Assembly: GCA_016191085.1 (NCBI GenBank) | Contig: JACPPJ010000031.1 | Location: 261 to 64,260 of the forward strand | Length of the DNA stretch: 64,000 nucleotides | DNA from: Acidobacteriota bacterium | GTDB taxonomy: Bacteria > Acidobacteriota > Terriglobia > 2-12-FULL-54-10 | Reading direction: 5' to 3' | Shown: positions 6,223 through 42,433 of the stretch, piece after piece | Numbering within the stretch: the first letter of the stretch is position 1 | Layout: each line of letters opens with the position of its first letter | Program-made: the position numbers and the translations under genes | Notes under the pieces: generated by a model | What the model was told of the DNA's origin: nothing | Database searches by the model: none | What the model saw: the letters and a program-made list of their open reading frames with translations, nothing else

Positions 6223-7620
6223 ATGCTCCGACTGTTACGCTTCTCTTCCGCGAGTGCACTCGTGTTGGTACTCAGCTCACTCCTTGGCGTGGGCACGTGG
6301 GTATCGCTGACCGGCAACACCCTACCCGCTGTCATGTACCGCGCGCCTTTGCCGCCTACAGGGTCTCCGCAACTGGTTTCTGTTGGGCTGCTGCCGCAGG
6401 CCCAAACCGAGGGCGAGATGTGCGAGTGGGTTCCGGCCAGCAGCCAGGAGCGGCTCGTGGCTATACCGCAGGAGAGGATGGCACGGACATCCACCGCAGC
6501 GGCCGAAGAAACCGGCCGAACCGCCGTATTGATAGAGCGCGCGCCACAACGAGTCATCAAGGATCCGTATCCGACCTACAGCGCGGTAGCGCTGGACCCC
6601 ATTTCGCGTGAAGTCGTTTTGCAAGACGAGAATCTGTTCCAGATCGTGACGTTCGATCAGAACGCCAACACTCCTCCAACGGCAAACTTCACCGAGCCCA
6701 AGCGCATCATCGGCGGCCACAACACGAAAATCGAATTCAACTGCGCGCTCTACGTTGATCCAAAGAACGGAGACATTTACTCCGTCAACAATGACACGCT
6801 GGACACGCTGGTCATCTTTGACCGCTCTGTCAGAGGAGACCAACCGCCCACACGCGAGCTCCGCACGCCCCATCGCACCTACGGAATTGCCGTCGATGAA
6901 GGGCAGAATGAGATGTACCTTACCGTGCAGGACCCGCCCATGGTGGTGATCTACGACAAGAACGCGATAGGCAACGACAAGCCGAAGAGAGTGATTCGCG
7001 GCAACAAAACCCGCCTGCAAGATGCGCACGGAATCGCGCTTAACAAGAAGGGCGGCTTGATATACGTGGCCAATTATGGAAACTACGCCCAGTACAGAGA
7101 CGGCGGCGGCAACAACCTGCCTGGGCGCAGCGATGACGACATGATCCGGGGCAGCGGCAAGTTTGCACCGCCGTCGATTGCCGTTTTCAAAATCGATGCC
7201 ATGGGCGACACGGCTCCCATCGGCCTGATCCAAGGGCCAAAGACAATGCTCAATTGGCCCGCTCACCTGTTCTATGATGAACAGCACCAGGAGCTTTTCG
7301 TGGCCAATGACGGAGACCATTCGGTGTTGGTCTTCCGGTCCATGGATACCGGGGACGTCGCTCCTACTCGTTTCATCAAAGGACCAAAGAGTCAGATAAA
7401 GAATCCGACGGGCGTGGCGGTGGATTCGAAAACGGACGAGCTGTTCGTCTCTAATATGGGCAACCATTCAGCCACCGTTTACAAGCGCACCGCGTCGGGC
7501 GATGTGCCGCCGATCCGAACCATCCGCAGCGCGCCCTCAGGTGCACCCGCTCTCCAGATCGGCAATCCCGGTGCGGTAGCATACGACACCAAACGCGACC
7601 AAATACTGGTTCCCAACTGA
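6223..7620 (+). CDS. Secreted beta-propeller repeat protein (NHL/YncE/lactonase-like blades), N-terminal part; ends at an in-frame TGA (locus A)
   Basis: It has a signal/anchor N-terminus and repeated blades of the form PxRxIxGxxTxLxxPxGxAxDxxxxELxVxNxxxxSxxVF. It is paralogous to 30424..31875 and 32049..33416. Confidence 0.8.
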   Translation: MLRLLRFSSASALVLVLSSLLGVGTWVSLTGNTLPAVMYRAPLPPTGSPQLVSVGLLPQAQTEGEMCEWVPASSQERLVAIPQERMARTSTAAAEETGRTAVLIERAPQRVIKDPYPTYSAVALDPISREVVLQDENLFQIVTFDQNANTPPTANFTEPKRIIGGHNTKIEFNCALYVDPKNGDIYSVNNDTLDTLVIFDRSVRGDQPPTRELRTPHRTYGIAVDEGQNEMYLTVQDPPMVVIYDKNAIGNDKPKRVIRGNKTRLQDAHGIALNKKGGLIYVANYGNYAQYRDGGGNNLPGRSDDDMIRGSGKFAPPSIAVFKIDAMGDTAPIGLIQGPKTMLNWPAHLFYDEQHQELFVANDGDHSVLVFRSMDTGDVAPTRFIKGPKSQIKNPTGVAVDSKTDELFVSNMGNHSATVYKRTASGDVPPIRTIRSAPSGAPALQIGNPGAVAYDTKRDQILVPN

Positions 7621-7641
7621 GTAGCTCACCCGCAGATTGCG

Positions 7642-7665
7642 GCCTTCGCCAGGATGGCGAAAGGC
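7642..7665 (+). promoter_or_regulatory. Candidate recoding (SECIS-like) hairpin 3' of the TGA at 7618-7620
   Basis: Sequence gcc-ttcgcca-GGA-tggcgaa-a-ggc: 10 bp with a 1-nt bulge and apical GGA, with the loop 31 nt after the TGA. Equivalent hairpins sit at the same offset in the two paralogs. Confidence 0.4.
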
Positions 7666-8475
7666 GGAGATGCTCCCCAGCGCGTGATATTCGGCCAGGC
7701 TACCAACCTCAGCCGAACCATGCATGACATCCGCTACAGCGCCAAGCGCGATGAGATCTATGTGACCAATCCGTTCGGACAAGCGGTCTTAGCGTTCCGC
7801 GGCACCGCAAGCGCCAACGAGGCGCCGATCCGCGTCATCCAAGGACCCAAAACGCAGCTCGGCAGCGAGGATACCCTGGAGATCGATGATATACACGATG
7901 AGATCCTGATTCCCACCGAGGATCGGATCCTGGTTTATCCAATTGATGCGAACGGCGACATCGCGCCGCTGCGCGTCATCAAGCCGGAGAACAATTACTG
8001 GAGAACTGGCGGCGGCATCGCTGTGGATCCTATCCACAACGTATTAGTGACCGACGGAACACTGCCCGGAGAGGAAACCATTGCCAGCGGACGCGCTGCG
8101 CGCGCCAATCGCCGCGATAGTATTCTGATCTTCGACCGCACCGCAAACGGCGAGGTCAAGCCGCTGCGTGTCATCCGAGGGCCTCGGACCGGCATCAAAG
8201 CGATACGCCAGATGCAGATCTATCCGAAGAACGGGTATATCGTGATCGCGCAGATAACCGATGGCGCTATCGCGGAGCCGGAGGGGACGTTTGTCGGTGT
8301 CTGGAGCATTAACGACAGCGGAGATGTCCCGCCGCGCTGGAAGATTGAAGGCAAGCCTGGCAATGGTATGAAGAAACCGCGTGGCGTCGCATTGAACCCA
8401 AAGCACAAGGAATTAATCGTCTCCGATATGCGACTCAACTCCGTCCTGACGTACTATTTCCCGGAGATGTTCTAA
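7654..8475 (+). CDS. Beta-propeller repeat protein, C-terminal part (locus A); conserved coding sequence actually begins at 7621, right after the TGA
   Basis: The ORF-track ATG is at 7654. The 33 nt upstream (VAHPQIAAFAR) are in frame and conserved in the paralogs. The blades continue through to the C-terminal YYFPEMF. Confidence 0.8.
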   Translation: MAKGGDAPQRVIFGQATNLSRTMHDIRYSAKRDEIYVTNPFGQAVLAFRGTASANEAPIRVIQGPKTQLGSEDTLEIDDIHDEILIPTEDRILVYPIDANGDIAPLRVIKPENNYWRTGGGIAVDPIHNVLVTDGTLPGEETIASGRAARANRRDSILIFDRTANGEVKPLRVIRGPRTGIKAIRQMQIYPKNGYIVIAQITDGAIAEPEGTFVGVWSINDSGDVPPRWKIEGKPGNGMKKPRGVALNPKHKELIVSDMRLNSVLTYYFPEMF

Positions 8476-25524: not shown

Positions 25525-25539
25525 CGGAATCGTTGGATT

Positions 25540-27966
25540 ATGGGCAGGACCTTACATATCCTGAAGCAAATCGCGAAGCTGCTCTTTCTGTGCGCGGCCC
25601 CGCTATTGCTCCTGGGCATGTTCGTCGGTTTTCTCGCAACCGATCTACTGTGCCGTCTCACGCGTCTTTTCTCCGTACACCGTCCTGCCGAACTTGACTC
25701 CGACGGTACTCTGGACTCTCCTCCACGAAGCGCCAGCATCGTCATTCCCAACTGGAACGGGAAGGAACTGCTGGCAAAGTTCCTTCCCAGCATAGTAGAA
25801 GCGACTTCGGAGCAAGACGAAATTATTGTTGTGGACAATGCCAGCACGGACGGCAGCGCCGAATTCCTGCGGCAGCGTTTCCCGCGTGTGCGCGTGATCC
25901 AGACGGAGCGCAACCTGGGTTTCGGCGGCGGGTCCAACTTGGGAATTCAAGCCGCGCGAAACCGCATCGCGGTCCTTCTGAACAATGATATGCGCGTGAC
26001 GCCTGATTTCCTGCGTCCGCTGCTTGACGGATTCACCGACCCCGCCGTGTTCGCGGTCAGCTCGCAAATCTTTTTCAGCGACCCGAGCCGCCGGCGTGAG
26101 GAGACGGGCCTCATCTCCGGCCGGTTTGAAAAAGGCTTTGTCAGGGTACGTCATGAGGTGGACCCGGACATCCCGACACTCTACCCCACGTTTTACGCGG
26201 GCGGCGGGTCAACGGCATACGATCGCGAAAAGTTTCTGGAACTGGGCGGCTTCGATTCGCTCTTTGAGCCGTTTTATCTAGAGGACACCGACCTTTCCTA
26301 TGGCGCGTGGCGGCGCGGGTGGAAAGTGTTTTACCAGCCTGCAAGCCACGTGTTTCACGAGCATCGCGCCACCATCGGGAAACACTACTCGCGCGCGGCG
26401 ATCCTGGCCTACTTGCAAAAAAACTACGCGCTGATGGTGTGGAAGAACATCCATCGCTGGCGCTGGCTCGCGTCACACCTTGTTTACCTCTACGGTCACA
26501 TGGCGCTGTGCTGGGCAGGCAAAGAGACCGATACGCGCACCACTATTGGTTCATTTATTCTGGCCCTGAAGCATTTTCCACGAGCGCTGCGCCAGCGTTT
26601 TCATGCGCTGGAGCGCGCCACAATCAACGATCCCGCCGTATTCGCCCGCACCCGGCCTTCGATCTTCCGCGACGTATTTCAGAGCCGTGAGGGAGCGCGC
26701 GCGGGAACGAATGGCAAGACGGAAATCCGAGCCCCTTTGACACCGCTTGCCTCCAACGGGCCAACCAACCGCCCGCTTAACATCCTTTTCGTCTCCCCGT
26801 ATTCAATGTACCCGCCCATACATGGCGGCGCCGTATTTATGCTGGAGGCGATCCGCGAACTCGCCAAGCGCCACAATATTTTCGTGCTCATGTTTGTGGA
26901 CCGCGCCGAAGAGGTTGAGCCGAACCGCTCGCTGGAGAGCTTCGTGCGGAAGGTGGACGTACACGTGCGCCGCTGGAAGCAGCGCCGCAATTTCGGCCTG
27001 CGCTCCAATGCCGAAGAAACTTTCCGCGATCCTCAGTTCGCGGCGCTTCTCGACAAGGCGGTTTACCTCTACGATATTGACGTCATCCAATTCGAGTACG
27101 CGCAGCTCGCGCAGTACCACCTGCCGCTGGAGCACACGCCGCAATGCCTGTTCGAGCACGACGTTTACTTCCACTCGGTCTCTCGCCAGTTGGCTTCGGG
27201 CCCAGGAGGAGTGTTTGTAAAGGCCCGGGAATTTGTCGAGTGGTTGCGGGCGTTGCGCTTCGAGGTCTCTGCCGCCGAGAAGTTCGACGCGCTCTTCACC
27301 TGCAACGAACATGAAAAGCGCCTGCTGGAATCATTTCTGAACGGGCGCCAGCCGCCGGTGTATTCCGGAGTCCACGTCGCGATTGACGTCCACAGCTATT
27401 CCTACCACGGCGGTCCGCGCCGTCCCGACTCGCTGCTGTTTGTGGGAAACTTTCAACATCAGCCGAACGTGGACGGACTGCTCTATTTCTGCCGCGAGGT
27501 GCTGCCGCTGATCCGCGCGGCGCGGCCAACGGTGACGTTCAGCGTGGCGGGAGCGCATCCCCGCGCTGAAATACAACGCCTGCTGCCCACCGTCGGTGTA
27601 GAGTTTCTAGGCCAAGTGCCTGATATCCGCGACCCGCTCTCCGAATATGCCGTGTTCGTTTGCCCCATCCTCACCGGCGCGGGTGTCCGGGTGAAGATAT
27701 TGGAAGCATTCGCCGCCGGCATCCCGGTGGTCTCCACGCCTCTGGGCGCCGAAGGCATCGCGGGCGAAGATGGCACTCATTTTCTGCTGGCCAACTCCCC
27801 ACGCCAGTTCGCTGACCAAACGCTCCGCCTGCTGCAACACCCCGAAACGGCCGCCGCTATGGCAGCACAATCCCGCGAACTTGTGGAAGAACTCTACGAT
27901 TGGCCCGCCGCCGCCATGCGACTAGAAGGAATTTACCGGGAGCTGGTAGCCACCCGGAATGGCTGA
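25540..27966 (+). CDS. Two-domain glycosyltransferase (N-terminal GT2, C-terminal GT4)
   Basis: 808 aa. The GT2 part shows SIVIPNWNG…VVDNASTDGS…NLGFGGGSN…LLNNDM. The GT4 part shows a C-terminal …GAGVRVKILEAFAAGIPVVST… region. Confidence 0.85.
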   Translation: MGRTLHILKQIAKLLFLCAAPLLLLGMFVGFLATDLLCRLTRLFSVHRPAELDSDGTLDSPPRSASIVIPNWNGKELLAKFLPSIVEATSEQDEIIVVDNASTDGSAEFLRQRFPRVRVIQTERNLGFGGGSNLGIQAARNRIAVLLNNDMRVTPDFLRPLLDGFTDPAVFAVSSQIFFSDPSRRREETGLISGRFEKGFVRVRHEVDPDIPTLYPTFYAGGGSTAYDREKFLELGGFDSLFEPFYLEDTDLSYGAWRRGWKVFYQPASHVFHEHRATIGKHYSRAAILAYLQKNYALMVWKNIHRWRWLASHLVYLYGHMALCWAGKETDTRTTIGSFILALKHFPRALRQRFHALERATINDPAVFARTRPSIFRDVFQSREGARAGTNGKTEIRAPLTPLASNGPTNRPLNILFVSPYSMYPPIHGGAVFMLEAIRELAKRHNIFVLMFVDRAEEVEPNRSLESFVRKVDVHVRRWKQRRNFGLRSNAEETFRDPQFAALLDKAVYLYDIDVIQFEYAQLAQYHLPLEHTPQCLFEHDVYFHSVSRQLASGPGGVFVKAREFVEWLRALRFEVSAAEKFDALFTCNEHEKRLLESFLNGRQPPVYSGVHVAIDVHSYSYHGGPRRPDSLLFVGNFQHQPNVDGLLYFCREVLPLIRAARPTVTFSVAGAHPRAEIQRLLPTVGVEFLGQVPDIRDPLSEYAVFVCPILTGAGVRVKILEAFAAGIPVVSTPLGAEGIAGEDGTHFLLANSPRQFADQTLRLLQHPETAAAMAAQSRELVEELYDWPAAAMRLEGIYRELVATRNG

Positions 27967-29589: not shown

Positions 29590-30423
29590 TCAGAATATCT
29601 CCGGGAAGTGATACGTCATTACGGCATTGACGTATTTATCCGAGACAATTACTTCCTTAGTCTTTGGCACCACCGTGATGCCGCGCACCTGCCGCAGCAT
29701 CTGGTTCGGGCCTCCTATCATCCACCGCGGTGGAACGTCGCCGTTGTCGGTTTCACTCCACACGCCAACCCAGTTGTTGGGAGACGATTTCTCCCGGCTG
29801 GGCATTCCGGCCAGAATCATCTTTGTCGGCGGGTAGACGGTGATCAGGGCTGTGAGCAGGATCTTGCTTTTGGGACCGAAGATCTGCGCCTTGGGCTTGA
29901 CGTTGCCGTTGTCCGTCCGGTTGAAGATGAGAATGTGGCCGTTTCTGCCGCTCTCTACGGCGCGCTCGTCTCCCTTCCGGGGTCGCTGGCCCGAAGCAAT
30001 GAGCAGATTGTTGACCGGATCGACAGTCAGAGCAGTGGCGCCCAACATTGTGTCAGGCCCCTTGATGGTGCGGATCGGTTTCACATTGCCCTCAGCGTCA
30101 CTGGGAAAAACCAGGATGGTGTCCTCCAGCGGAATGAAGACCTCTTTGTGAATCGGATCGAGGGCGAGCCTCGCCGGAGTGGTCATCTGCGTATCGGGAC
30201 CCATGATGATGCGGATCGGCTTCTCGTCTCCGTTCGCACCGCCGCGGTAGGTCATGATCGCCTGGGCATAGAACTGCGGGATGACGATCTCATCCGTGAT
30301 GGGGTTGTAGGCCATGTCGTGGATCGTGCGGGTGATCGCCGAATTCTGACCTGCGATTGAACGGGTGGGCTTGGCATTTCCGTTCGCCAACCTGGCGAAT
30401 GCCGCGATCTGCGGATGAGCCAC
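29590..30423 (-). CDS. Beta-propeller repeat protein, C-terminal part (locus B); begins at the GTG directly abutting the upstream TGA
   Basis: It starts (V)AHPQIAAFARLANGNAKPTRSI…, is collinear with 7621..8475 and 33417..34223, and ends …YHFPEIF. Confidence 0.8.
   Translation of the reverse strand: MAHPQIAAFARLANGNAKPTRSIAGQNSAITRTIHDMAYNPITDEIVIPQFYAQAIMTYRGGANGDEKPIRIIMGPDTQMTTPARLALDPIHKEVFIPLEDTILVFPSDAEGNVKPIRTIKGPDTMLGATALTVDPVNNLLIASGQRPRKGDERAVESGRNGHILIFNRTDNGNVKPKAQIFGPKSKILLTALITVYPPTKMILAGMPSREKSSPNNWVGVWSETDNGDVPPRWMIGGPNQMLRQVRGITVVPKTKEVIVSDKYVNAVMTYHFPEIF
30373..30403 (-). promoter_or_regulatory. Candidate recoding (SECIS-like) hairpin 3' of the TGA at 30424-30426 (minus strand)
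   Basis: The minus-sense RNA reads ggcat-ttcgcca-GGU-tggcgaa-cggaa-atgcc: a 7-bp upper stem, a 5-bp lower stem and an apical GGU. Confidence 0.4.
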
Positions 30424-31875
30424 TCAGTTGGCGACGAGCAACTCGTCGCGCTTGCTGTCCCAGGTCAGCGTGTGCGGATTGCCCATCATGGGAGCCGGAG
30501 CCTCGATGGGCCCGCTGCGGATGACGCGCAGCGGCGGTGCATCGCCGGAAGCGCCCAGCTTGTACACGGTTGCCGTGTGGTTGCCGAAGTTGGCCACCCA
30601 GAGCTCCTGATTCTTCAGGTCAGCGAAAACGCTGGTCGGATTCTTGATCAACGTCTTGGGTCCCTTCAGGACACGGATCGGAGCCACATCGCCGTTCGCA
30701 TCAGCCTTGAACACCAGCACCGAATCCACCGGATCGTTCGCCACATACAACTCGCCGCGTTCATGATCAATGCTGAGCGCGGTGGGCCAGTTGAGCTGTG
30801 TGCGCGGTCCCTGGATGACCCGGATCGGCGGGGTATCCCAGCTAGCGTCGCGTGGATACACCGTAATGGAAGGCGGCATGAACTTGCCGGAGCCTGGCAC
30901 TGCATCGTTGCGGCCAACCGGCCAGTTGTCTCTGCCGATGCCGCGATTCAGCGTACCGCTGTACTTGCCGGATGCGGGCCGTTTGTGGACGTTTACCGAA
31001 CCCCAGTTGCTGACGTAAATCTGGTCCGTCTTGGGATTATATGCAATGCCATGGGGATCAGCCATGAGAGTACGCGGACCTTGCAGCGTACGAATGGGCG
31101 AGTCCTTACCCGTCGCCGTCTTTTTGAACGTCACCACGGCGGCATCGTCCTGGACGGTCAGCATCAACTCCTGCGTCCTCTCGTCCACCGCGACTCCAAA
31201 CGTGGCCATCGGCGTATTGAGATAGCGCGCCGGCTTAGCGTTGCCGTTTGCGCCGTGGGGAAACACAGCCATCTTGCCGAGCGTATCGTTATTCACGGCG
31301 TAGATGTCGCCGTTGGCGGGGTCGATATAGAGAGAGCATTGGAACTCGATCTCGGTATCCTCGCCGTGGATCATGCGCTTGGGCTCGCTCAGCTTGGCAT
31401 TGGGCGGAGTGTTCTCGAGGCGGTCATAAGCGACGATGCGAAACTTGTTCTCATCCGTCATGAGCACTTCATTGTGGATGGGGTCAACCGCAACGGCGCT
31501 GAAGGCACCCCAGGGGTCATTGATGACTCGGATCGGTTTCCGTCGTGACGCGGCGAGCTTTTCTGCTTCGGTCACATCCGCGGCGGGCGGCGCAAATTGC
31601 TGCTGGAATGAAGCGAACAATGACGAGTTGGCGGCGCTGGCCGGTTCCCACTCGCACCTTTCACCATCGGCTTGCGGCAGCGGCTCAACCGAAACTAATT
31701 GTGGCTGTCCTGTGGCCTTTTGTGCTGGTCTCAATTGACCGCCCGCGCCCCAGAGTACAACCGTAGCAATGAGCGCGAGGAGAGCTAATATGCCGAGTCC
31801 GCCCGCCCTGTTTCGAAACAAACGTACACGCGCCATTCGTATTCCTCCTTTAATCCCAGCCGCTCCGCTATTCAA
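30424..31875 (-). CDS. Secreted beta-propeller repeat protein, N-terminal part; ends at an in-frame TGA (locus B)
   Basis: 483 aa with a signal/anchor, the conserved QPQLVSVEPLPQADGERCEWEPAS segment and seven blade-like repeats. It ends …DSKRDELLVAN-TGA. Confidence 0.8.
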   Translation of the reverse strand: MNSGAAGIKGGIRMARVRLFRNRAGGLGILALLALIATVVLWGAGGQLRPAQKATGQPQLVSVEPLPQADGERCEWEPASAANSSLFASFQQQFAPPAADVTEAEKLAASRRKPIRVINDPWGAFSAVAVDPIHNEVLMTDENKFRIVAYDRLENTPPNAKLSEPKRMIHGEDTEIEFQCSLYIDPANGDIYAVNNDTLGKMAVFPHGANGNAKPARYLNTPMATFGVAVDERTQELMLTVQDDAAVVTFKKTATGKDSPIRTLQGPRTLMADPHGIAYNPKTDQIYVSNWGSVNVHKRPASGKYSGTLNRGIGRDNWPVGRNDAVPGSGKFMPPSITVYPRDASWDTPPIRVIQGPRTQLNWPTALSIDHERGELYVANDPVDSVLVFKADANGDVAPIRVLKGPKTLIKNPTSVFADLKNQELWVANFGNHTATVYKLGASGDAPPLRVIRSGPIEAPAPMMGNPHTLTWDSKRDELLVAN

Positions 31876-32048
31876 TGCTCCGTAAAAGACCTTCCCCGTT
31901 GGCCGCCATTATACATCAGGGCTGCGGCCGGTTCCGGAATTTGACGCTTGAACTCCATAAACTCGTAACAGTTCGCAGGGACAGATCGTCTATCGTATAG
32001 TAGCTGAGTTAAGCGTGTGCTCATTGCGGCGCTACGGAGGTTTGTTAT

Positions 32049-33416
32049 ATGCATTGCAATTCGTCTGGAAAGGCTCTTCTGACCATCGTCGCGGTTCTAA
32101 TCGCAACGGGCGGCTTGTGTCTGGTATCCGGAACTCAATTTCAATTCGGCAAAGACCGCCCCAACGGCCAGCCGCGATTGATTGCGATTGATCCGCTGCC
32201 GCAAGCCGACGGTGAGGTTTGTGAGTGGCAACCGGCGAGCTTCAGCGCGCCGCAGGGGCAGGCCGGCACATCCTCTCCCTCATCTGCAGCAGACGAGGCG
32301 AAGAAGTCGGAGGTGGAGAAGCGCAAACCAATCAGGACCATTCGCGACCCTTACGCGGCATACAGTTCCGTGGCAGTGGATCCCGTCCACAATGAGGTGG
32401 TGCTGACGGATGAGAACCTTTTCAACATTCTAGTTTACGACCGCCTGGCGAATACTCCTCCTAACGCCAAAATGACCGAGCCCAAACGCATGATCGGAGG
32501 GCTGAATACCAAAATTGAGTTTCAGTGCGGGCTCTACATCGACCCGACGAACGGCGATATTTTCGCAGTGAACAACGACACGGTGGACACGTTGGTCATC
32601 TTCAACCGGCAGGCCAAGGGCAATGTGCCGCCTACGCGCGAGCTGTACACTCCACATGGAACGTTCGGTATCGCCGTTGACGAGCAGGCTCAGGAAATGT
32701 ACTTGACGGTGCAGCACGACAGCGCGGTGGTGGTATACAAGAAGTACGCTACGAAAAATGACTCGCCTCTGCGCCTGTTGCAGGGCGACAATACCATGCT
32801 GGCAGACCCGCACGGCATCGCCGTTGATCCGAGGACCAATGTGATCTTCGTGGCCAATCACGGCGCGACTCACTCGGTGGATGGGAAACTGAGCGAACAC
32901 ACAAGGCGGCCGAATTTCCCCTTGGAGCGAGCGTTTGCCGTGCCCGGATCGGGCCGCAGCCTGCCTCCTTCCATCACCGTGTACGAAAAGAACGCGTCGG
33001 GCGACACCGCTCCGATACGCGTGATCTCCGGTCCGAACACACGAATGAATTGGCCCTCCGGCCTGGCCGTGGATTCTGATCGCGGCGAGCTTTACGTTGC
33101 AAACGATATGGATGATTCGATCCTGGTCTTCGACATCACTGCCGAAGGCGACGCGGCGCCGAAGCGCGTACTGAAGGGGCCGGCAACCATGCTCAAGAAT
33201 CCTACTGGCGTGTTCCTCGATACGAAGAACGACGAGCTGTGGTCCGCGAATTTCGGGAATCACACCGCGACAGTGTTCAAGCGGACGGCATCCGGCAACA
33301 CACCGCCGTTGCGCGTGATCCGCAGCGGACCTACCAACGAGCCATCGCTCGGCATCGGCAACCCGCACCCGATTGCGTACGACAGCAAGCGCGAGGAGAT
33401 TCTGGTTCCCAACTGA
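32049..33416 (+). CDS. Secreted beta-propeller repeat protein, N-terminal part; ends at an in-frame TGA (locus C)
   Basis: 455 aa with a signal/anchor, the QPRLIAIDPLPQADGEVCEWQPAS segment and blade repeats. It ends …DSKREEILVPN-TGA. It is transcribed divergently from locus B. Confidence 0.8.
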   Translation: MHCNSSGKALLTIVAVLIATGGLCLVSGTQFQFGKDRPNGQPRLIAIDPLPQADGEVCEWQPASFSAPQGQAGTSSPSSAADEAKKSEVEKRKPIRTIRDPYAAYSSVAVDPVHNEVVLTDENLFNILVYDRLANTPPNAKMTEPKRMIGGLNTKIEFQCGLYIDPTNGDIFAVNNDTVDTLVIFNRQAKGNVPPTRELYTPHGTFGIAVDEQAQEMYLTVQHDSAVVVYKKYATKNDSPLRLLQGDNTMLADPHGIAVDPRTNVIFVANHGATHSVDGKLSEHTRRPNFPLERAFAVPGSGRSLPPSITVYEKNASGDTAPIRVISGPNTRMNWPSGLAVDSDRGELYVANDMDDSILVFDITAEGDAAPKRVLKGPATMLKNPTGVFLDTKNDELWSANFGNHTATVFKRTASGNTPPLRVIRSGPTNEPSLGIGNPHPIAYDSKREEILVPN

Positions 33417-34223
33417 GTGGCGCACCCGCAGATCGCGGTCTTCGCCAGGATGGCGGATGGAAACGCGGCGCCCACTCGAAAGATTGAAGGACAGAAAACT
33501 CTCCTCGGACGCACCATGCACGCGATCGCCTACGATGAGGTTCACGATGAGTTCATGGTCCCGCAACAGTTCGCCCAGGCAATTCTGACTTTCCGCGGCG
33601 CGGCAAGGGGCGAAGAGGCTCCGGTGCGCGTCATTCAAGGCTCTAAAACCCAGCTTGTCTCCCTGGACCGGCTGGCCTACGACCCCGTGCATGGAGAAAT
33701 CTTCGTGCCCGAAGGTGAAAAGGTACTGGTGTTTCCGCGCGCCGCCAACGGCAACGTTGCTCCCGTGCGCGTGCTGGGCGGCAAGGGCTCCTCATTACGC
33801 GCCAGCGCTGCTGCCGTGGACACAGTGCGTAATCTGCTGGTCGTGATGGGAGGCGAGCGAAACGATCCGCGGTTTGAGATTTACAACCGCACCGATGAAG
33901 GCAACGCTAAGCCCCTGCGTGTGATTGGCGGCCCCAAGAGCGGGTTCCGCCAACTGGGCGGCCCATTTGCCGTGTATCCGCCGAAGGGCTGGATCATCGC
34001 TTCGGATCGCGGACACGGAGAGCTGGTTTCCGACATAGCGTACGTGGGCGTCTGGAGTGTGGAAGACAACGGCGATGTGCCGCCCCGCTGGAGGTTCGGC
34101 GGACCGAACGGAGTGTTGAAGATGCCCCGCGGTATAACCCTTGATCCCAAGAACAAGAACGTCCTTGTCAGCGATAAGCGTCTGAATGCGGTGATGACTT
34201 TCGCCTTCCCAGAGCTGTTTTAG
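33417..34223 (+). CDS. Beta-propeller repeat protein, C-terminal part (locus C)
   Basis: It starts at the GTG immediately after the TGA, reading (V)AHPQIAVFARMADGNAAPTRKI…, and ends …FAFPELF. Confidence 0.8.
   Translation: MAHPQIAVFARMADGNAAPTRKIEGQKTLLGRTMHAIAYDEVHDEFMVPQQFAQAILTFRGAARGEEAPVRVIQGSKTQLVSLDRLAYDPVHGEIFVPEGEKVLVFPRAANGNVAPVRVLGGKGSSLRASAAAVDTVRNLLVVMGGERNDPRFEIYNRTDEGNAKPLRVIGGPKSGFRQLGGPFAVYPPKGWIIASDRGHGELVSDIAYVGVWSVEDNGDVPPRWRFGGPNGVLKMPRGITLDPKNKNVLVSDKRLNAVMTFAFPELF
33435..33466 (+). promoter_or_regulatory. Candidate recoding (SECIS-like) hairpin 3' of the TGA at 33414-33416
   Basis: Sequence gcg-gtc-ttcgcca-GGA-tggcgga-tggaaa-cgc: a 7-bp upper stem including one G-U pair, an apical GGA and a short lower stem. 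Confidence 0.35.
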
Positions 34224-34553: not shown

Positions 34554-35009
34554 GTGCATATGAACATTCTTTTGGCCATTGACGATTCAAAGTACTCTGA
34601 GGCGGCTGTCCAAGCGCTCATCAACCAATTCCGGCTCCAGGACACCACAATTCGCGTCGTGCATGTTACCGAGCCGATTACGTTCGCCTTCCCACCGGAA
34701 ATAGCCGCTGAATATGCCGCAACACCTCACTTAACCTTGCTGCGACAGGACCAGTTGAAGAAAGCCGAGGCTTTGGTTCAAGCTGCGGCCGCCAAGCTGC
34801 GCTCGGCGAACTTTAATGTCGAAACAGCGGTGTATGAGGGGGACGTCAGGTCGGAGATCGTCGACTTGGCATCCCAATGGCCTGCCGACCTGATCGTTGT
34901 GGGTTCGCACGGGCGTAAGGGCCTAAACCGCTTTCTCATGGGCAGCGTTTCGGAGTTCGTAGCGCGTCATGCGCCTTGTTCCGTAGAGGTGGTCCGCGCA
35001 GCGGCGTGA
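34554..35009 (+). CDS. Universal stress protein (single Usp domain)
   Basis: ILLAIDDSKYSEAAV…LIVVGSHGRKGLNRFLMGSVSEFVARHAPCSVEVVR. Confidence 0.85.
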   Translation: MHMNILLAIDDSKYSEAAVQALINQFRLQDTTIRVVHVTEPITFAFPPEIAAEYAATPHLTLLRQDQLKKAEALVQAAAAKLRSANFNVETAVYEGDVRSEIVDLASQWPADLIVVGSHGRKGLNRFLMGSVSEFVARHAPCSVEVVRAAA

Positions 35010-35095: not shown

Positions 35096-36559
35096 TTGGA
35101 GGCTCGTTTCGTGTTAACCTTTCTGCCATCCCGCTCCCACCTGGATTCCTTCTATCATTTGGATGCGGATCCTGTCCCGACAGCCTGTCGCGGTCTGGCT
35201 TGCTTTGTCGCGCGACACCTGAATGCGCCGGCATGGCGGGAAGCGACGGCCCACAGCGAGCGCGTATACTGCCTGGGCAAGTGTTATGCGGCCCCGGCAT
35301 GCACGGACGAGGATCAGCGCCCCCGCGTCGAGGTGCACGCATCCACACCGGTGCTTCTAGGCCGCGTGCTTGGCGGAGGCGCTCCCGGTATTGACCGCTA
35401 TATAAAACGCCAGGGTTATCGAGCGCTCGAGCTGGCGTTGCGGCAGTCTCCTGAGCACTTAATTCAGACTATTTCCGAATCGGGTCTGCGAGGGCGCGGC
35501 GGCGCCGGGGTCCCCACCGGTCGCAAGTGGGATGCCGTTTTTCGCGAGCGATCAAACGAGAAGTTCGTGATCGCCAATGCCGATGAAGGCGATCCAGGCG
35601 CGTTCATGGAGCGCGTTCTGCTGGAAGAGGACCCGCACTCGTTGATCGAAGCGATGGTGATTGCCGGATTCGCGGTAAACGCCGCCCGGGGAATCATTTA
35701 TCTCCGCAAAGAATATCCGCGAGCGGCAGTCATGCTGCGCGAAGCCATCCAGGATGCACGGAGAAAAGGGATTCTCGGCTCGAACATCCTGGGCAGGCGG
35801 TTTTGCTTCGACGTGGAACTCGCAATCGGGCGCGGCAGCTATGTCTGCGGAGAAGAATCGGCTCTGCTGAACGCGCTGGAAGGAAAGCGCCCCGAACCCA
35901 GGCAGCGCCCGCCTTATGCCAGCGAAAGCGGCCTCTATGGCAAGCCGACACTCATCAACAACGTGGAGACATTCGCGAACGTCCCCTGGATTATTCTCAA
36001 CGGGGCCGACGCGTACAGCAGGCTGGGGTGTTCGACCAGCAAAGGGACCAAGTTGATCTCGCTGAACTCGCTGTTCCGGCGGCCCGGGCTGTACGAAGTG
36101 GAATTCGGCGTGACCGTCCGGCACGTAGTAGAACAGATCGGCGGCGGCCTCGCGGGCGAGTTGAAAGGTGTGATTATCGGAGGGCCGCTGGCGGGAATTG
36201 TTCCGCCGCACCTGCTCGACACTCCATTCGCGTTCGAGGAGTTGCGCTTGATCGGCGCCAGCGTGGGCCACGGCGGCATCGTAGCTTTCGACGAACACAC
36301 CAGCATTCGCGAGCTGATCCATCATATGTTCGAGTTTGGCGCTTATGAATCATGCGGCAAATGCACGCCGTGCCGCGTAGGCACGCGCCGCATAGAAAAG
36401 CTGTTCGCTCGCGCCTGGTTCAACGAAGCAGAAGACGCCGAGTGGCGCGAGATCGTTCGCGCGATGTCCCTAACCAGTTTCTGCGGAATGGGGACGGGGC
36501 TCGCCGAATTCGCGCAGAGCGCGATTCGTTATTATGCCGAGGAGCTTGCATTATGCTGA
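35096..36559 (+). CDS. NuoF-like NAD(H)-binding flavoprotein subunit (formate dehydrogenase beta / NuoE-F fusion type)
   Basis: GLRGRGGAGVPTGRKW, ANADEGDPGAFMER and a C-terminal 4Fe-4S motif ESCGKCTPCR. The N-terminus carries C-x4-C … C-x3-C, resembling a NuoE-type 2Fe-2S motif. Confidence 0.85.
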   Translation: MEARFVLTFLPSRSHLDSFYHLDADPVPTACRGLACFVARHLNAPAWREATAHSERVYCLGKCYAAPACTDEDQRPRVEVHASTPVLLGRVLGGGAPGIDRYIKRQGYRALELALRQSPEHLIQTISESGLRGRGGAGVPTGRKWDAVFRERSNEKFVIANADEGDPGAFMERVLLEEDPHSLIEAMVIAGFAVNAARGIIYLRKEYPRAAVMLREAIQDARRKGILGSNILGRRFCFDVELAIGRGSYVCGEESALLNALEGKRPEPRQRPPYASESGLYGKPTLINNVETFANVPWIILNGADAYSRLGCSTSKGTKLISLNSLFRRPGLYEVEFGVTVRHVVEQIGGGLAGELKGVIIGGPLAGIVPPHLLDTPFAFEELRLIGASVGHGGIVAFDEHTSIRELIHHMFEFGAYESCGKCTPCRVGTRRIEKLFARAWFNEAEDAEWREIVRAMSLTSFCGMGTGLAEFAQSAIRYYAEELALC

Positions 36560-39228
36560 GCGTGACAATCAACGGCATACAATGCAGGTGTCCCGAGGGC
36601 GTCAGCATTCTGGACGCTCTGAACTTGCTGAATATTAAGATGCCGTCGCTCTGCCATGATGACCGGCTGGAACCGTACGGCGGCTGCCGGTTATGTATAG
36701 TGCAGGTGAAGGGACACGATCGCCCCGTGCCTGCGTGCAGCACGCCGCTTGCCGAGGAGATGGAGATCGAAACGCATAGCGCGGAGATCAAAGAGCTCCG
36801 CCGGACGCTGCTGAAGCTGTTGGCGCATTCGTACCCCGCCGAGGCTGTGAAGGCGTTCCCCGATAAACCGTTCCATCGGTATCTGAAGAGCTATGGTGTG
36901 GAGGACGCTTGTGTTCACGGCTATTACCCCACGCTTGCGGACGAATCGCATCCATACATTCGTGTGGATATGTCGCGGTGCATGTATTGCCAGCGCTGCG
37001 TACGCATATGCCGGGAAGTACAAGGACAGTTTGTGTGGCAGGTGTGGGATCGAGCAGACGCCACCAGGATATTGCCCGACTCGGGCACCAATCTCGCCGA
37101 AAGCTCCTGCGTGGCCTGTGGCGCTTGCGCCGATACTTGTCCAACGGGTGCCCTGGAAGACAAGACACTTCTCTTGAGCGGCTCGGCATTGGCGGGCACG
37201 AGCACGACGTGCCCCTATTGCGGCGTGGGATGCGAGATGGAAGTGCGCACGCGCGGCAGCCGCATCGTAGCAATCAAGCCAGTGGTCAGCGCCCCGGTGA
37301 ATCGCGGGCACTTGTGCGTGAAGGGAAGGTACGCCTTTGAATTTGTGCACTCGCCAGACCGGATCACCGAACCGATGATCCGGCGCAACGGCGAATGGAA
37401 GCCTGTATCGTGGGAGTACGCCATTCATACTGTGGCCGAGGCGCTCCGCGAAAGCATCCAGCGCGAAGGTCCTCAAAGTACCGCGATTCTGGCTTCGGCG
37501 CGGGCAACGAATGAGGAGAACTACCTGACTCAGAAATTTGCGCGCGTGGTGCTGGGCACCAACAACGTGGATTGCTGTGCGCGGGTCTGTCACGCTCCAA
37601 CGGCTACCGCGATGAAGGCGATGCTTGGGACAGGCGCGGCTACCAACTCGTTTAATGATATCGAGCGGGCGCGGACGATTCTTGTATGCGGCGCAAACCC
37701 GACCAGCAACCATCCCGTGATCGGCGCGCGCATCAAGCAGGCGGTGCTGAAGGGCACCAGCCTGATCGTCATTGATCCGCGGCGGATCGAACTGGCCGAC
37801 TACGCCGACCATCACCTGCAAGTTCGGCCGGGCACCAACGTTCCGCTCCTGAACGCCATCGCTCACACCATTGTTGAAGAGAGCCTCTTCGACAGAGAAT
37901 TCATGCGGGAGCGTGTCTCGGATTGGGAGAGCTTCGCGCGGTTTATCCAGAACTTCGCGCCGGAAAAAGTGGCGACCGTTTGCGGTGTGAACGCTCAGTG
38001 CATCCGTGAGGCGGCACGCCTATATGCCACGGAAAAGCCCAGCATGATCATCCACGGGCTGGGCGTCACGGAACACACTCAGGGTAGCGAAGGCGTGATG
38101 CTGCTCGTCAATCTCGCTCTGCTTACCGGGAACGTCGGTAAGCGCGGCGGGGGTGTGATGCCGCTGCGCGGCCAGAACAACGTCCAGGGCGCTGCTCACA
38201 TGGGCTGCGATCCCGGGAGCCTTACGGGCGCAGTCGCTTTTGACGACGGCAAAGCCTTGTTTGAAGACGCATGGAGCACGTCGCTTCCTTCAACACCCGG
38301 TCTGAATTTGCTGCAAATGATGGATGCGGCTGCTGAAGGCAAGCTGAAGACGCTGTGGGCCATTGGATTTGACGTATTTCTCACGAACCCGCAGGCGCAC
38401 GCGACGTCCAGGGCGCTCTGGGAAATGGACTGCGTAGTCGTTCAGGATATGTTCCTGAACGAAACGGCGCGCGAATTCGGTTCGGTGTTCCTGCCGGCGG
38501 TATCATCGTTCGAAAAGGACGGTACATTCATGAACGCCGAACGCCGCGTCCAGAGGGTGCGGCAGGTGATTGAACCCCTTGGGCAAGCGAAAGCAGATTG
38601 GGAAATCTTATGCCTGGTGGCGCGCGCTATGGGTAAAGCCAACTTGTTTCCGTATACCAGCGCCGAGCAGATCTGGAATGAGATTCGGACAGTATGGAAG
38701 GCGGGCGCGGGTATCTCCTATGGCCGGCTGGAACAGGGCGGTTTGCAGTGGCCCTGCCCCGATGAAACGCATCCCGGCACAGAGATCCTGCACACCCAAT
38801 GCAGCTCTCCAAAAACGATAGCGCTCCGCGAAGTGCAATATCGTCCCACTCCTGAGAGAGTGGCGAAGGACTTTCCATTTCTGCTGATAACGGGTAGAGC
38901 GGCGTATCAGTTCAATGCCGGGACCATGTCGTCGCGCACACCCAACGTGGAACTCTGGCCAACGGATGTTCTGGAGATGGCGGCAGCCGATGCGCAACGG
39001 CTAGGCGTACGCAGCGGCGAACGGGTTCGCATCCGAAGCCGCTTCGGAGAGGCCGAACTGCCGCTGCAGATCAGCCCTGCCCTTCGCCCTGGCGAGTTGT
39101 TCACCACCTTTCACTCTCCGCAGGTCTTCTTGAACCACGTTACCAGCCCCTACCGCGACACGTTCTCCGACACTCCCGAGTACAAAGTCACTGCCGTCAC
39201 GGTCGAAAAAGTCAGCGATTCCGCATAA
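36553..39228 (+). CDS. fdhA: Formate dehydrogenase alpha subunit (molybdopterin, NuoG-like N-terminus), cysteine type
   Basis: The ATG at 36553 overlaps the upstream stop (ATGCTGA). The N-terminal 2Fe-2S/4Fe-4S cysteine clusters and a molybdopterin oxidoreductase core are present. The active-site segment is CCARVCHAPTA, with TGT at 37588-37590. Confidence 0.9.
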   Translation: MLSVTINGIQCRCPEGVSILDALNLLNIKMPSLCHDDRLEPYGGCRLCIVQVKGHDRPVPACSTPLAEEMEIETHSAEIKELRRTLLKLLAHSYPAEAVKAFPDKPFHRYLKSYGVEDACVHGYYPTLADESHPYIRVDMSRCMYCQRCVRICREVQGQFVWQVWDRADATRILPDSGTNLAESSCVACGACADTCPTGALEDKTLLLSGSALAGTSTTCPYCGVGCEMEVRTRGSRIVAIKPVVSAPVNRGHLCVKGRYAFEFVHSPDRITEPMIRRNGEWKPVSWEYAIHTVAEALRESIQREGPQSTAILASARATNEENYLTQKFARVVLGTNNVDCCARVCHAPTATAMKAMLGTGAATNSFNDIERARTILVCGANPTSNHPVIGARIKQAVLKGTSLIVIDPRRIELADYADHHLQVRPGTNVPLLNAIAHTIVEESLFDREFMRERVSDWESFARFIQNFAPEKVATVCGVNAQCIREAARLYATEKPSMIIHGLGVTEHTQGSEGVMLLVNLALLTGNVGKRGGGVMPLRGQNNVQGAAHMGCDPGSLTGAVAFDDGKALFEDAWSTSLPSTPGLNLLQMMDAAAEGKLKTLWAIGFDVFLTNPQAHATSRALWEMDCVVVQDMFLNETAREFGSVFLPAVSSFEKDGTFMNAERRVQRVRQVIEPLGQAKADWEILCLVARAMGKANLFPYTSAEQIWNEIRTVWKAGAGISYGRLEQGGLQWPCPDETHPGTEILHTQCSSPKTIALREVQYRPTPERVAKDFPFLLITGRAAYQFNAGTMSSRTPNVELWPTDVLEMAAADAQRLGVRSGERVRIRSRFGEAELPLQISPALRPGELFTTFHSPQVFLNHVTSPYRDTFSDTPEYKVTAVTVEKVSDSA

Positions 39229-41554: not shown

Positions 41555-42433
41555 GTGAACATGCTACCGATTTCCCGAATACTGGCGCCGGTGGACTTCT
41601 CCGACCGCTGTCTGCGGATGATGCCCTACGTCCGCTCCTTGGCTCAGACCTACAATGCGGAACTGATCCTCCTGCACGTCGTGAATCCTTTCTATGGAAT
41701 TCCGCCGACCGGAATCTCCGGACCTGCCATGATCCCGATTTCCCCAACGATCTTACAGGACAAGGCCAAGGAACTGGATGCATTTGCAGTGTCGGAGCTT
41801 CAGGGGCTTCCAGTGCGCCGGTTCGTTTACGAGGGCGATACGACCGCTCAGATCGTGGAGTTTGCTCGCGCCGAACGGGTGGGCTTGCTCGCCATGCCCA
41901 CGCATGGCTACGGCGTGCTGCGCCGCTTCCTGATTGATTCGGTGACTGCCAAGGTATTACACGATGTCTCTTGCCCTGTTTTGACGGGAGTACATCTCGA
42001 GAATCATTCGCCCGGCAGAGAAGGGATCTTCAAAAATATCCTATGCGCGGTAGACCTGGGACCGCAGAGCCAGGAAGCGTTGTCCTGGGCTGCACAACTC
42101 GCCTCCGACTTCGGCGCCAAGCTGGGTATTGTTCATGCTATGAGCGCGCTAAATCCCGGAGTAACGCTTCTGCTCTCGCCCGAATTTGAGTTGCAGATGG
42201 CAAAGCCTGTGCGCGCCGAGCTGCAGAAATTGCAAGTCGCCGCAGGAGCGGAGAAAGCGCCAATCTATATAGAAGAAGGCGATGCGCCCAAAACCGTTGC
42301 GACCGTAGCCAAAGGGATCGGCGCAGACCTGCTGGTTATCGGGCGCGGCACCAGGGAGGATGACACCGGACGTTTGCGTACGAACGCATATGCTATCATC
42401 CGGCAGTCGCCCTGTCCGGTGATCAGTATCTGA
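41555..42433 (+). CDS. Tandem universal stress protein
   Basis: ILAPVDFSDRC… and ILCAVDLGPQS… are two Usp halves. A …LLVIGRG… segment is present, and the protein ends …QSPCPVISI. Confidence 0.8.
   Translation: MNMLPISRILAPVDFSDRCLRMMPYVRSLAQTYNAELILLHVVNPFYGIPPTGISGPAMIPISPTILQDKAKELDAFAVSELQGLPVRRFVYEGDTTAQIVEFARAERVGLLAMPTHGYGVLRRFLIDSVTAKVLHDVSCPVLTGVHLENHSPGREGIFKNILCAVDLGPQSQEALSWAAQLASDFGAKLGIVHAMSALNPGVTLLLSPEFELQMAKPVRAELQKLQVAAGAEKAPIYIEEGDAPKTVATVAKGIGADLLVIGRGTREDDTGRLRTNAYAIIRQSPCPVISI

What the first reader, a model, noticed from the sequence alone, without database searches (positions are those of the whole stretch)
32049..34223. Locus C: third copy with the in-frame TGA, arranged head-to-head with locus B
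ORFs 32049..33416 and 33417..34223 are contiguous in one frame (724 codons). They read …DSKREEILVPN-TGA-GTG-GCG-CAC-CCG-CAG-ATC-GCG….

Loci B and C are divergently transcribed from a 173-bp shared intergenic region (31876-32048). That arrangement suggests a duplicated and co-regulated pair.

In B and C the codon after the TGA is GTG, so termination followed by reinitiation at TGAGTG is a formal alternative here. Locus A (TGAGTA) does not allow that, which makes a single common mechanism of read-through or recoding more parsimonious.
Basis: partly seen in the sequence, partly recalled or inferred. Interest (0 to 1): 0.85.

Follow-up and report, generated by a model that had tools for sequence, protein, structure and literature searches.

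The report
Uncatalogued beta-propeller selenoprotein gene family
The in-frame TGA in this gene is almost certainly read as selenocysteine, so the two "ORFs" are one gene for a membrane-anchored double beta-propeller protein. It belongs to a large family in soil Acidobacteriota that is missing from the current list of bacterial selenoproteins.

Summary
ORFs 32049..33416 and 33417..34223 form one 724-codon frame interrupted only by TGA (33414-33416). Two paralogues (A 6223..8475, B 31836..29590) have the same interruption.

The TGA is best explained as a selenocysteine codon:
- It aligns with a cysteine present in all 116 full-length homologues.
- The same TGA, never TAA or TAG, is found at 101 sites in Acidobacteriota genomes and soil metagenomes.
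- The next codon is GTC, GTA or GTT at 14 of those sites, so reinitiation is excluded.
- An 8-bp stem with an AGGNU loop lies 30 nt after the UGA. It meets the published bacterial SECIS model, shows compensatory changes and has frozen synonymous sites. It is absent from distant Cys forms that encode the same amino acids.

The product is an N-terminally anchored protein with two six-bladed NHL-type propellers. Sec sits in a strand-connecting loop of blade 7.

I did not find the family among the 119 catalogued prokaryotic selenoprotein families or in NCBIfam. Its biochemical function is unknown. Sec machinery in this genome could not be checked. Co-regulation of B and C is untested.

The parts
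32049..34223 (+). Locus C: one selenoprotein gene of 724 codons (Sec at codon 456), encoding an N-terminal anchor, a low-confidence arm and two six-bladed NHL-type beta-propellers
   Evidence: Searches show frame continuity. One search gives NHL, SGL and Lactonase Pfam hits above their cut-offs. One search finds full-length homologues of 730-750 aa. One search gives a model of homologue P0002 (61% identical) with pLDDT 84 and 12 blades.
32035..32039 (+). GGAGG Shine-Dalgarno sequence, 9 nt before the ATG at 32049
   Evidence: Read directly from the sequence.
32073..32129 (+). Hydrophobic N-terminal segment (ALLTIVAVLIATGGLCLVS), a signal or membrane anchor
   Evidence: Read from the translation. 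A and B have equivalent segments. That it acts as an anchor is inferred.
32220..32222 (+). TGT codon for Cys58 (CEW motif), the only other invariant cysteine of the family; a candidate partner of Sec
   Evidence: Cys in all 119 homologues that cover this column; the arm has pLDDT below 50, so its position in the fold is unknown.
33414..33416 (+). In-frame TGA, read as a selenocysteine codon
   Evidence: aligned with Cys in 116 of 116 full-length homologues. TGA at 101 homologous sites, never TAA or TAG.
33426..33438 (+). Conserved mini-hairpin CCGC-AGAUC-GCGG between the UGA and the SECIS hairpin; role unknown
   Evidence: 95.8% of cells paired, with two compensatory events; synonymous sites frozen. 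It fails the SECIS spacing rule because its loop starts only 13 nt after the UGA.
33439..33459 (+). SECIS-like hairpin: core stem UUCGCC/GGCGGA at 33441-33446 and 33452-33457, apical loop AGGAU at 33447-33451, and two outer pairs that covary in other sequences
   Evidence: Searches show conservation in A, B and C.: -8.4 kcal/mol; 8-bp stem, 54 compensatory cells against 17.4 expected. One search gives the model criteria, all of which are met.
31837..32048 (.). Divergent intergenic region between B and C, with a promoter-like TTCGCA-18-TATAGT at 31972-32001 (+)
   Evidence: The promoter match is no better than chance. No inverted repeats were found.
29590..31836 (-). Locus B: paralogous selenoprotein gene, with TGA at 30426-30424 and the hairpin core at 30399-30383
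6223..8475 (+). Locus A: paralogous selenoprotein gene, with TGA at 7618-7620 followed by GTA, and the hairpin core at 7645-7661

Best explanation
Locus C is one gene. Its UGA at 33414-33416 is decoded as selenocysteine by the bacterial Sec pathway: SelB bound to Sec-tRNA(Sec) is recruited by an mRNA hairpin inside the coding sequence, 30 nt downstream of the UGA. The product is a 724-residue protein with three parts: an N-terminal hydrophobic anchor (so probably extracytoplasmic), a poorly ordered arm carrying one invariant cysteine, and two six-bladed NHL-type beta-propellers. Sec456 lies in the short loop between two strands of blade 7, the first blade of the second propeller. Loci A and B encode anciently diverged paralogues that work the same way.

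Shown here:
- frame continuity across the TGA;
- Sec/Cys correspondence with homologues;
- exclusive use of TGA at this site;
- a covarying hairpin that fits the SECIS model;
- loss of that hairpin in distant Cys forms;
- the double-propeller fold.

Inferred:
- that SelB and tRNA(Sec) exist in this genome;
- that Sec is the catalytic, probably redox-active, residue;
- that it may cycle with the invariant N-terminal Cys;
- that the protein sits outside the cytoplasm.

The substrate is unknown.
For: 1. Sec/Cys correspondence. The TGA column is Cys in 116 of 116 full-length homologues. Cys-Val-x-x-Pro is invariant in a diverse 27-sequence alignment.

2. Recurrence. 101 homologous sites (95 distinct sequences) in Acidobacteriota assemblies and soil metagenomes carry TGA there, and none carries TAA or TAG. 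One of the three scan patterns required Cys, so the metagenome scan was not biased towards TGA. In a library of 50%-identity clusters, 24 representatives end exactly at ..LVPN and 10 span the site with Cys.

3. Coding continues in frame. Third-codon-position entropy is about 1-1.9 bits on both sides of the TGA.

4. Reinitiation is excluded. The next codon is GTC 8 times, GTA 5 times and GTT once. The break lies between strands 477-481 and 488-493 of one blade.

5. The hairpin fits the published SECIS criteria: a stem of 6-8 bp, a 5-nt loop A-G-G-N-U, 30 nt between the UGA and the loop, and -8.4 to -10.4 kcal/mol in the three window copies.

6. RNA-level selection. 95.4% of cells are paired. 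There are 54 compensatory cells against 17.4 +/- 3.7 in shuffles (0 of 500 reach the observed value). Pair 33-51 occurs as AU 32, GC 20, UA 13 and CG 8. Synonymous sites in codons +4, +7 and +9 to +13 are frozen at 0-0.25 bit. The loop Arg codon is AGG in 89 of 95 sequences, although AGG makes up only 7% of Arg codons in the window's genes.

7. Specificity to Sec forms. Distant Cys forms encoding the same FAR[LM]A peptide use GCG-CGG..GCC or GCT and pair at only 4-5 of the 6 stem positions (L110-L112). A Cys clade 80% identical to Sec forms still keeps the hairpin.

8. UGA is an ordinary stop codon for about 40% of the other genes in the window, so its decoding here must depend on context.

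9. Sec use is documented in Acidobacteria (PMC1794560; PMC12013277).
Against: - No selA, selB, selD or tRNA-Sec gene lies in the 64-kb window or in the flanks of 60 related loci. The rest of the genome could not be searched.
- The formate dehydrogenase in the window is the Cys type, CHAP.
- Most stem positions are also constrained by the protein sequence, so covariation rests mainly on two outer pairs and a few rare events.
- A second conserved mini-hairpin does not fit the model.
- No Rfam family matches.
- There is no experimental evidence of selenium incorporation.
- The redox role and the Cys58 partnership are conjecture. The N-terminal arm is modelled with pLDDT below 50.
Confidence: 0.88

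Rival explanations
1. Two separate genes are translationally coupled. Translation ends at TGA and restarts at the adjacent GTG, giving a 455-aa and a 268-aa protein that may assemble.
For: In B, C and 87 of 101 homologous sites the next codon is GTG, a legal start. Automatic annotation calls two genes.
Against: - The next codon is GTC, GTA or GTT at 14 sites, including locus A.
- Val at that position is invariant in Cys forms too, so GTG reflects the protein sequence.
- No Shine-Dalgarno sequence lies at a working distance. The only GGAG is 18 nt upstream in C and is absent in A.
- The stop is always TGA.
- Homologues are single chains, and the break cuts a blade between two strands.
- It does not explain the frozen synonymous sites or the covarying hairpin.
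Confidence: 0.02
2. The UGA is read through without selenocysteine. A near-cognate or suppressor tRNA inserts Trp, Cys, Arg or Gly, perhaps helped by the downstream hairpins.
For: Sec machinery was not demonstrated for this genome. Downstream structures can promote read-through in other systems (general knowledge). One database entry (P0033) shows Trp at the site, because the gene caller translated TGA as W.
Against: - The column is strictly Cys in homologues, the known signature of Sec, and never Trp, Gly or Arg.
- The hairpin meets the SelB-type SECIS criteria, including the G at loop position 2 and the spacing.
- Leaky read-through would give mostly truncated protein from 3 to at least 5 paralogues per genome, which is unlikely to persist over this depth of divergence.
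- UGA is a normal stop elsewhere in the window.
Confidence: 0.07
3. The three copies are pseudogenes or carry assembly errors, each hit by a nonsense mutation.
For: None beyond the presence of a stop codon.
Against: - The same TGA is at the same column in three paralogues only 44-52% identical to each other, and at 101 sites in independent assemblies.
- Codon-periodic conservation continues downstream.
- There are no frameshifts or further stops.
Confidence: 0.01

Closest known systems
Bacterial selenoprotein genes with an in-ORF SECIS (archetype: E. coli formate dehydrogenase H, fdhF)
   Same: An in-frame UGA aligns with Cys in homologues. A stem-loop lies directly downstream within the coding sequence. 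It has a small apical loop with G then G or U near its 5' side, sits 16-37 nt from the UGA, and is more stable than -7.5 kcal/mol. All model criteria quoted in PMC13188914 are met.
   Different: The protein fold and family differ entirely. An extra conserved mini-hairpin lies between the UGA and the SECIS hairpin. The genes are multi-copy (3 in this window, at least 5 in one assembled genome). SelB dependence is inferred, not shown.
Cys-containing members of the same family (e.g. P0002-P0120, annotated 'SMP-30/gluconolactonase/LRE family', 'beta-propeller fold lactonase family protein' or 'YncE')
   Same: They share the same architecture of 730-750 aa, 45-61% identity over the full length, the same invariant residues including the N-terminal Cys, and the same C-V-x-x-P motif.
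   Different: They have TGC or TGT instead of TGA. Distant ones lack the hairpin and vary more in the FAR[LM]A segment. Their names come from automatic annotation. The YncE model is not met: 23 bits against a cut-off of 400.
NHL-repeat six-bladed propellers (TRIM2/3, Brat, NHLRC2, SOQ1) and tandem YWTD propellers (LRP6)
   Same: Similarity is at the repeat level in sequence (E 4e-6 to 1e-2). The overall fold is a tandem propeller (Foldseek E about 1e-20).
   Different: Identity is 9-16% and TM-scores are 0.25-0.3. The conserved Cys/Sec site is not shared and nothing about function can be transferred. That NHLRC2 and SOQ1 combine NHL with thioredoxin-like domains is recalled knowledge and only a lead.
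The 119 catalogued prokaryotic selenoprotein families (PMC13188914, Table 1)
   Same: A single Sec per protein, Cys homologues, and a likely redox role, as proposed for most of those families.
   Different: No catalogued family has an NHL, SMP-30 or beta-propeller architecture or an N-U-V-A-H-P motif. No NCBIfam selenoprotein model hits either half of the protein. Most known families have thioredoxin-like folds.

Membership tests
Bacterial selenoprotein gene (Sec-UGA plus bSECIS) | In-frame UGA aligned with Cys in homologues | tested here: met
   Cys in 116 of 116 full-length homologues; TGA at 101 homologous sites.
Bacterial selenoprotein gene (Sec-UGA plus bSECIS) | Conserved coding sequence continues in the same frame after the UGA | tested here: met
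   A single tblastn alignment covers residues 1-724. Codon-periodic entropy holds on both sides of the TGA. The propeller fold is continuous across the site.
Bacterial selenoprotein gene (Sec-UGA plus bSECIS) | Downstream stem-loop with a 4-16 bp stem, a 3-9 nt loop, G in the first two loop positions, 16-37 nt from the UGA, and MFE of -7.5 kcal/mol or lower | tested here: met
   Stem of 6-8 bp, loop AGGAU, spacing 30 nt, -8.4 kcal/mol for C and -10.4 and -8.8 for A and B. Covariation is supported.
Bacterial selenoprotein gene (Sec-UGA plus bSECIS) | selA, selB, selC (tRNA-Sec) and selD present in the same genome | not testable with these tools
   None found in the window or in the flanks of related loci. 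Sec use in the phylum is known only from the literature.
Bacterial selenoprotein gene (Sec-UGA plus bSECIS) | Selenium shown in the protein (75Se labelling or mass spectrometry) | not testable with these tools
   Needs an experiment.
Any already catalogued selenoprotein family | Match to a listed family, domain or NCBIfam selenoprotein model | tested here: not met
   Not among the 119 families of PMC13188914 Table 1. The terms NHL, propeller, lactonase, SMP-30 and YncE are absent from three recent selenoproteome papers. No NCBIfam selenoprotein model hits.
NHL / SMP-30 / lactonase beta-propeller superfamily (Pfam) | Score above the Pfam gathering threshold | tested here: met
   NHL 36.7 to 42.3 bits (cut-off 20), SGL 33.7 (26.3), Lactonase 30 to 33.5 (21.7). 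The model shows 12 four-stranded blades.
YncE (NCBIfam NF052280) and 6-phosphogluconolactonase (NF008258) | Score above the curated cut-off | tested here: not met
   23.4 bits against 400, and 23.2 against 370. The database names 'YncE' and 'lactonase' should not be taken as the function.
Termination-reinitiation (translationally coupled gene pair) | A start codon at or next to the stop in all members, and a ribosome-binding site | tested here: not met
   A non-start codon follows the TGA at 14 of 101 sites. No Shine-Dalgarno sequence lies 5-10 nt upstream.

The most novel reading that the evidence does not exclude
These genes define a previously unrecognised, very large selenoprotein family, and the first with a beta-propeller fold. 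It is exported or membrane-anchored and has expanded to 3 to at least 5 Sec paralogues per genome across soil Acidobacteriota (Terriglobia, Bryobacteraceae, Solibacteraceae, Vicinamibacterales). Automatic annotation systematically splits it into two genes. If so, abundant soil bacteria have a substantial hidden selenium requirement, and the family uses a two-hairpin recoding signal whose first hairpin lies outside the current SECIS model.
Probability: 0.6. Interest if true: 0.72.

Novelty: new member of a known kind. Interest (0 to 1): 0.62.

Why it matters
- Selenoprotein catalogues are built mostly from thioredoxin-fold and metallo-enzyme families of anaerobes and marine bacteria. A propeller-fold, extracytoplasmic family that is widespread and multi-copy in a dominant soil phylum would widen the known chemistry of Sec and the known demand for selenium in soils.
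- It would correct many mis-annotated 'two-gene' loci. In the 50%-identity cluster library, 24 of the top 150 representatives end exactly at this site.
- Natural Sec/Cys pairs, including a clade that switched recently and still carries the hairpin, give a ready system for testing what Sec offers over Cys.
- The family also gives nearly 100 natural variants of one SECIS for refining prediction models. They include an extra conserved hairpin that those models do not describe.

Tried and rejected
- Rfam, at gathering thresholds over the whole window and at permissive thresholds around the site: nothing relevant. The only hit was a chance CRISPR-repeat match at E = 1.6.
- tRNA scans of the window and of 60 related loci found no tRNA-Sec.
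- Pfam annotation of about 50 window genes found no selA, selB or selD, and no informative operon partner. The neighbours are endonuclease V, Usp proteins, a NuoF-like plus Cys-type FdhA pair, and an alcohol dehydrogenase.
- Neighbour clustering over about 110 loci gave only weak recurrence. A TonB-dependent-receptor-like outer-membrane barrel appears in 11 loci and two amidohydrolase-type neighbour families appear in 9 and 5 loci. That is too weak to assign a pathway.
- PDB searches by fold and by sequence found only generic tandem propellers and NHL repeats. No function can be transferred.
- A scan of the window for other ORF pairs bridged by TGA found only A, B and C as credible. The methyltransferase/glycosyltransferase pair at 25522 is two genes that share a frame by chance.
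- The B/C spacer has no inverted repeats, and promoter matches are at chance level.
- Three look-ups of Cys-form DNA and one of the 'W' form returned no DNA.
- Reassignment of TGA for the whole genome was rejected because about 40% of the window's genes end in TGA.
Full report
**Observation.**
The window carries ORF 32049..33416 (455 aa), which ends in TGA at 33414-33416. ORF 33417..34223 (268 aa) follows in the same frame, starting with GTG. Translated through the TGA, the frame is 724 codons long. tblastn with that protein returns one uninterrupted alignment at locus C and two paralogues. Locus B is on the minus strand, head-to-head with C (55% identity). Locus A is 24 kb upstream (50% identity).

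All three read ..LV[PA]N-TGA-Val-Ala-His-Pro-Gln-Ile-Ala-x-Phe-Ala-Arg-[Met/Leu]-Ala.

One detail needs correcting. B most likely starts at the ATG at 31836, which has AAGGAGG seven bases upstream, not at the TTG at 31875. An independent gene call on a matching contig gives a 470-aa product and a 212-bp spacer.

**What the TGA corresponds to.**
A search of 5.8 billion proteins found more than 3,700 relatives, most of them single chains of 730-750 aa. In a MAFFT alignment of the best 120, the column opposite the TGA is Cys in all 116 sequences that span it. One further entry has Trp, because the gene caller translated TGA as W. Cys-Val-x-x-Pro is invariant in a diverse 27-sequence alignment.

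An in-frame TGA aligned with an invariant cysteine is the standard signature of selenocysteine.

**Recurrence.**
Scans of one genome per species and of JGI metagenomes returned 107 loci. Among them, 101 sites (95 distinct sequences) carry TGA at exactly this column. None carries TAA or TAG, and 8 carry TGC or TGT. One of the three metagenome scan patterns required Cys, so the search was not biased towards TGA.

The named hosts are all Acidobacteriota: Terriglobia, Bryobacteraceae, Solibacteraceae and Vicinamibacterales. One assembled genome (JADFGZ01) has at least five TGA paralogues.

In the library of 50%-identity clusters, the family profile hits 2,591 proteins at E <= 1e-30. That count probably includes other propeller-repeat proteins. 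Among the top 150 representatives, 24 end exactly at ..LVPN and 10 span the site with Cys. Gene callers therefore split this family routinely, and Sec forms are at least as diverse as Cys forms.

A, B and C each have closer orthologues elsewhere (60%, 81% and 76% identity in the C-terminal part) than to one another (44-52%). They are old paralogues that each kept the TGA.

**Reinitiation is excluded.**
- The codon after the TGA is GTC at 8 sites, GTA at 5 and GTT at 1.
- Val at that position is invariant in Cys forms too, so GTG reflects the protein sequence rather than a start signal.
- No Shine-Dalgarno sequence lies at a working distance.
- In the AlphaFold model of a 61%-identical Cys homologue (pLDDT 84, pTM 0.82), the residue lies in the six-residue loop between strands 477-481 and 488-493 of one blade. 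A break there would cut a blade in two.

**The recoding signal.**
Downstream of the UGA, all three copies and all 95 distinct Sec-form sequences have two hairpins:
- a mini-hairpin CCGC-AGAUY-GCGG (C: 33426-33438);
- directly after it, a hairpin with core UUCGCC-AGGNU-GGCG(G/A)A (C: 33441-33457, loop 33447-33451).

RNAalifold extends the second stem by two outer pairs.

The second hairpin meets every criterion of the consensus bacterial SECIS model quoted in the 2026 review. The stem is 6-8 bp and the loop is 5 nt. The loop reads N1-G-G-N-N2, with N1 and N2 able to pair. It starts 30 nt after the UGA. Stability is -8.4 (C), -10.4 (A) and -8.8 (B) kcal/mol.

Pair counting on the 95 sequences gives 95.4% paired cells. 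There are 54 cells with changes on both sides, against 17.4 +/- 3.7 in shuffles (0 of 500 reach the observed value). All slid-register controls score lower. The outer pair 33-51 occurs as AU 32, GC 20, UA 13 and CG 8. In the core, rare variants keep pairing at the cost of amino-acid changes. An example is UUCCCC..GGGGAA, which encodes FPRLG instead of FARLA.

Third-codon-position entropy is 1-1.9 bits on both sides of the site but drops to 0-0.25 bit in codons +4, +7 and +9 to +13. The loop arginine is AGG in 89 of 95 sequences, while AGG is only 7% of Arg codons in the window's genes.

The structure is specific to Sec forms. Three distant Cys forms encoding the same FAR[LM]A peptide use GCG-CGG..GCC or GCT and pair at only 4-5 of the 6 stem positions. 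Two other distant Cys forms pair at 4-5 of the 6 positions. A Cys clade 80% identical to Sec forms still has the hairpin, which points to a recent Sec-to-Cys switch. The FAR[LM]A segment is also much more variable in Cys forms.

The mini-hairpin is equally conserved, with two compensatory events and frozen synonymous sites. However, its loop starts only 13 nt after the UGA, so it lies outside the model. I have no explanation for it.

**Other readings.**
- Reassignment of UGA across the genome is excluded, because about 40% of the window's genes end in TGA.
- Pseudogenes are excluded by the recurrence and by the conserved downstream frame.
- Read-through without Sec cannot be formally excluded, because the Sec machinery of this genome could not be examined.
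- Sec use is documented in Acidobacteria (PMC1794560; PMC12013277).
- The formate dehydrogenase in the window is the Cys type, CHAP where selenoprotein forms have UHxP. That neither supports nor contradicts Sec use.

**The protein.**
Pfam places it in the NHL / SMP-30 / lactonase propeller superfamily, above the gathering thresholds. The curated YncE and 6-phosphogluconolactonase models are far from met, so the database names are not functional assignments.

The model has 12 four-stranded blades, which I read as two six-bladed propellers. Sec lies in blade 7. By general knowledge of propeller topology, the loop between the second and third strands of a blade lies on the face where propeller active sites usually sit. 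I could not inspect coordinates to confirm this.

PDB comparisons find only generic tandem propellers (LRP6, WD40 pairs) and NHL repeats.

All three copies begin with a hydrophobic segment, so the propellers are probably outside the cytoplasm. A second cysteine, in the poorly modelled arm after the anchor (Cys58 in C, TGT at 32220-32222), is present in all 119 homologues that cover it. It is an obvious candidate partner for a selenenylsulfide, but this is conjecture.

Genomic neighbours are not informative. An outer-membrane barrel recurs in 11 loci and two amidohydrolase-type neighbour families in 9 and 5 loci.

**B/C arrangement.**
Adjacent paralogue pairs occur in tandem (L013, L031), divergent (L038, L106, this window) and convergent (L046, L061) orientations. 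Clustering of paralogues is common, but the head-to-head arrangement is not conserved. The spacer shows no inverted repeat and no promoter match above chance. Co-regulation remains untested.

**Novelty.**
The most recent catalogue of prokaryotic selenoproteins (119 families, May 2026) has no propeller, NHL or SMP-30 family and no N-U-V-A-H-P motif. Three recent selenoproteome papers do not mention such a family, and further literature searches found nothing. NCBIfam has no model for it. NCBI annotates this very gene as a 455-aa protein.

The mechanism is known, but the family appears to be new. I rate it a new member of a known kind. It should interest specialists because of its fold, its probable location outside the cytoplasm, its copy number and its spread in soil Acidobacteriota.

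Noticed in passing
window 35096-39228: A NuoF-like flavoprotein gene (35096-36559) is followed by an FdhA-type molybdopterin oxidoreductase (about 36556-39228). The latter has Cys (ARVCHAPT) at the position where selenoprotein formate dehydrogenases have UHxP. The genome's formate dehydrogenase here is therefore the Cys type, while three propeller genes use TGA.
   Followed up: partly
window 33426-33438 (also 7630-7642 and 30414-30402): A mini-hairpin CCGC-AGAUY-GCGG lies between the UGA and the SECIS-like hairpin. It is conserved in 95 sequences with frozen synonymous sites. It fails the published SECIS spacing rule and directly abuts the second helix. Its role is unknown.
   Followed up: partly
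window 24094-27966: A methyltransferase gene ends in TGA at 25522-25524, and a glycosyltransferase gene (its own ATG at 25540) follows in the same frame, 5 codons later. This looks like chance frame sharing between two separate genes, not recoding.
   Followed up: partly
window 32430-33692 (-) and 30415-31548 (+): Long antisense 'shadow' ORFs (420 and 377 aa) overlap the selenoprotein genes. In related loci such an antisense ORF is often the longest ORF at the site, because the TGA splits the real gene, so it can mislead gene callers.
   Followed up: partly
window 34554-35009, 39408-40484, 41555-42433: Three universal-stress-protein (Usp) genes flank the formate dehydrogenase and alcohol dehydrogenase genes just downstream of locus C.
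   Followed up: no
window 45467-49713: A signalling cluster on the minus strand: a CHASE2-domain Ser/Thr protein kinase (877 aa), a PP2C phosphatase and an FHA-domain protein.
   Followed up: no
window 784-3263: Two adjacent paralogous DUF7790 genes; the second overlaps the first by 4 bases.
   Followed up: no
P0033 (JGI metagenome 3300071358, 2.6-kb contig): A database homologue carries Trp at the Sec column (..LVPNWVAHPQ..). The gene caller evidently translated TGA as W. The DNA could not be fetched to confirm this.
   Followed up: partly
L003, L005, L018, L020, L023 (MAG JADFGZ01, isolate B32T1B5): One Acidobacteria genome assembly carries at least five paralogues of this gene, all with the in-frame TGA and the hairpin.
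   Followed up: partly
L057, L058, L060, L062, L063, L064: A clade of Cys forms (TGC/TGT) is 80% identical to Sec forms. It still carries the SECIS-like hairpin, while its mini-hairpin is decaying. This looks like a recent Sec-to-Cys replacement.
   Followed up: partly
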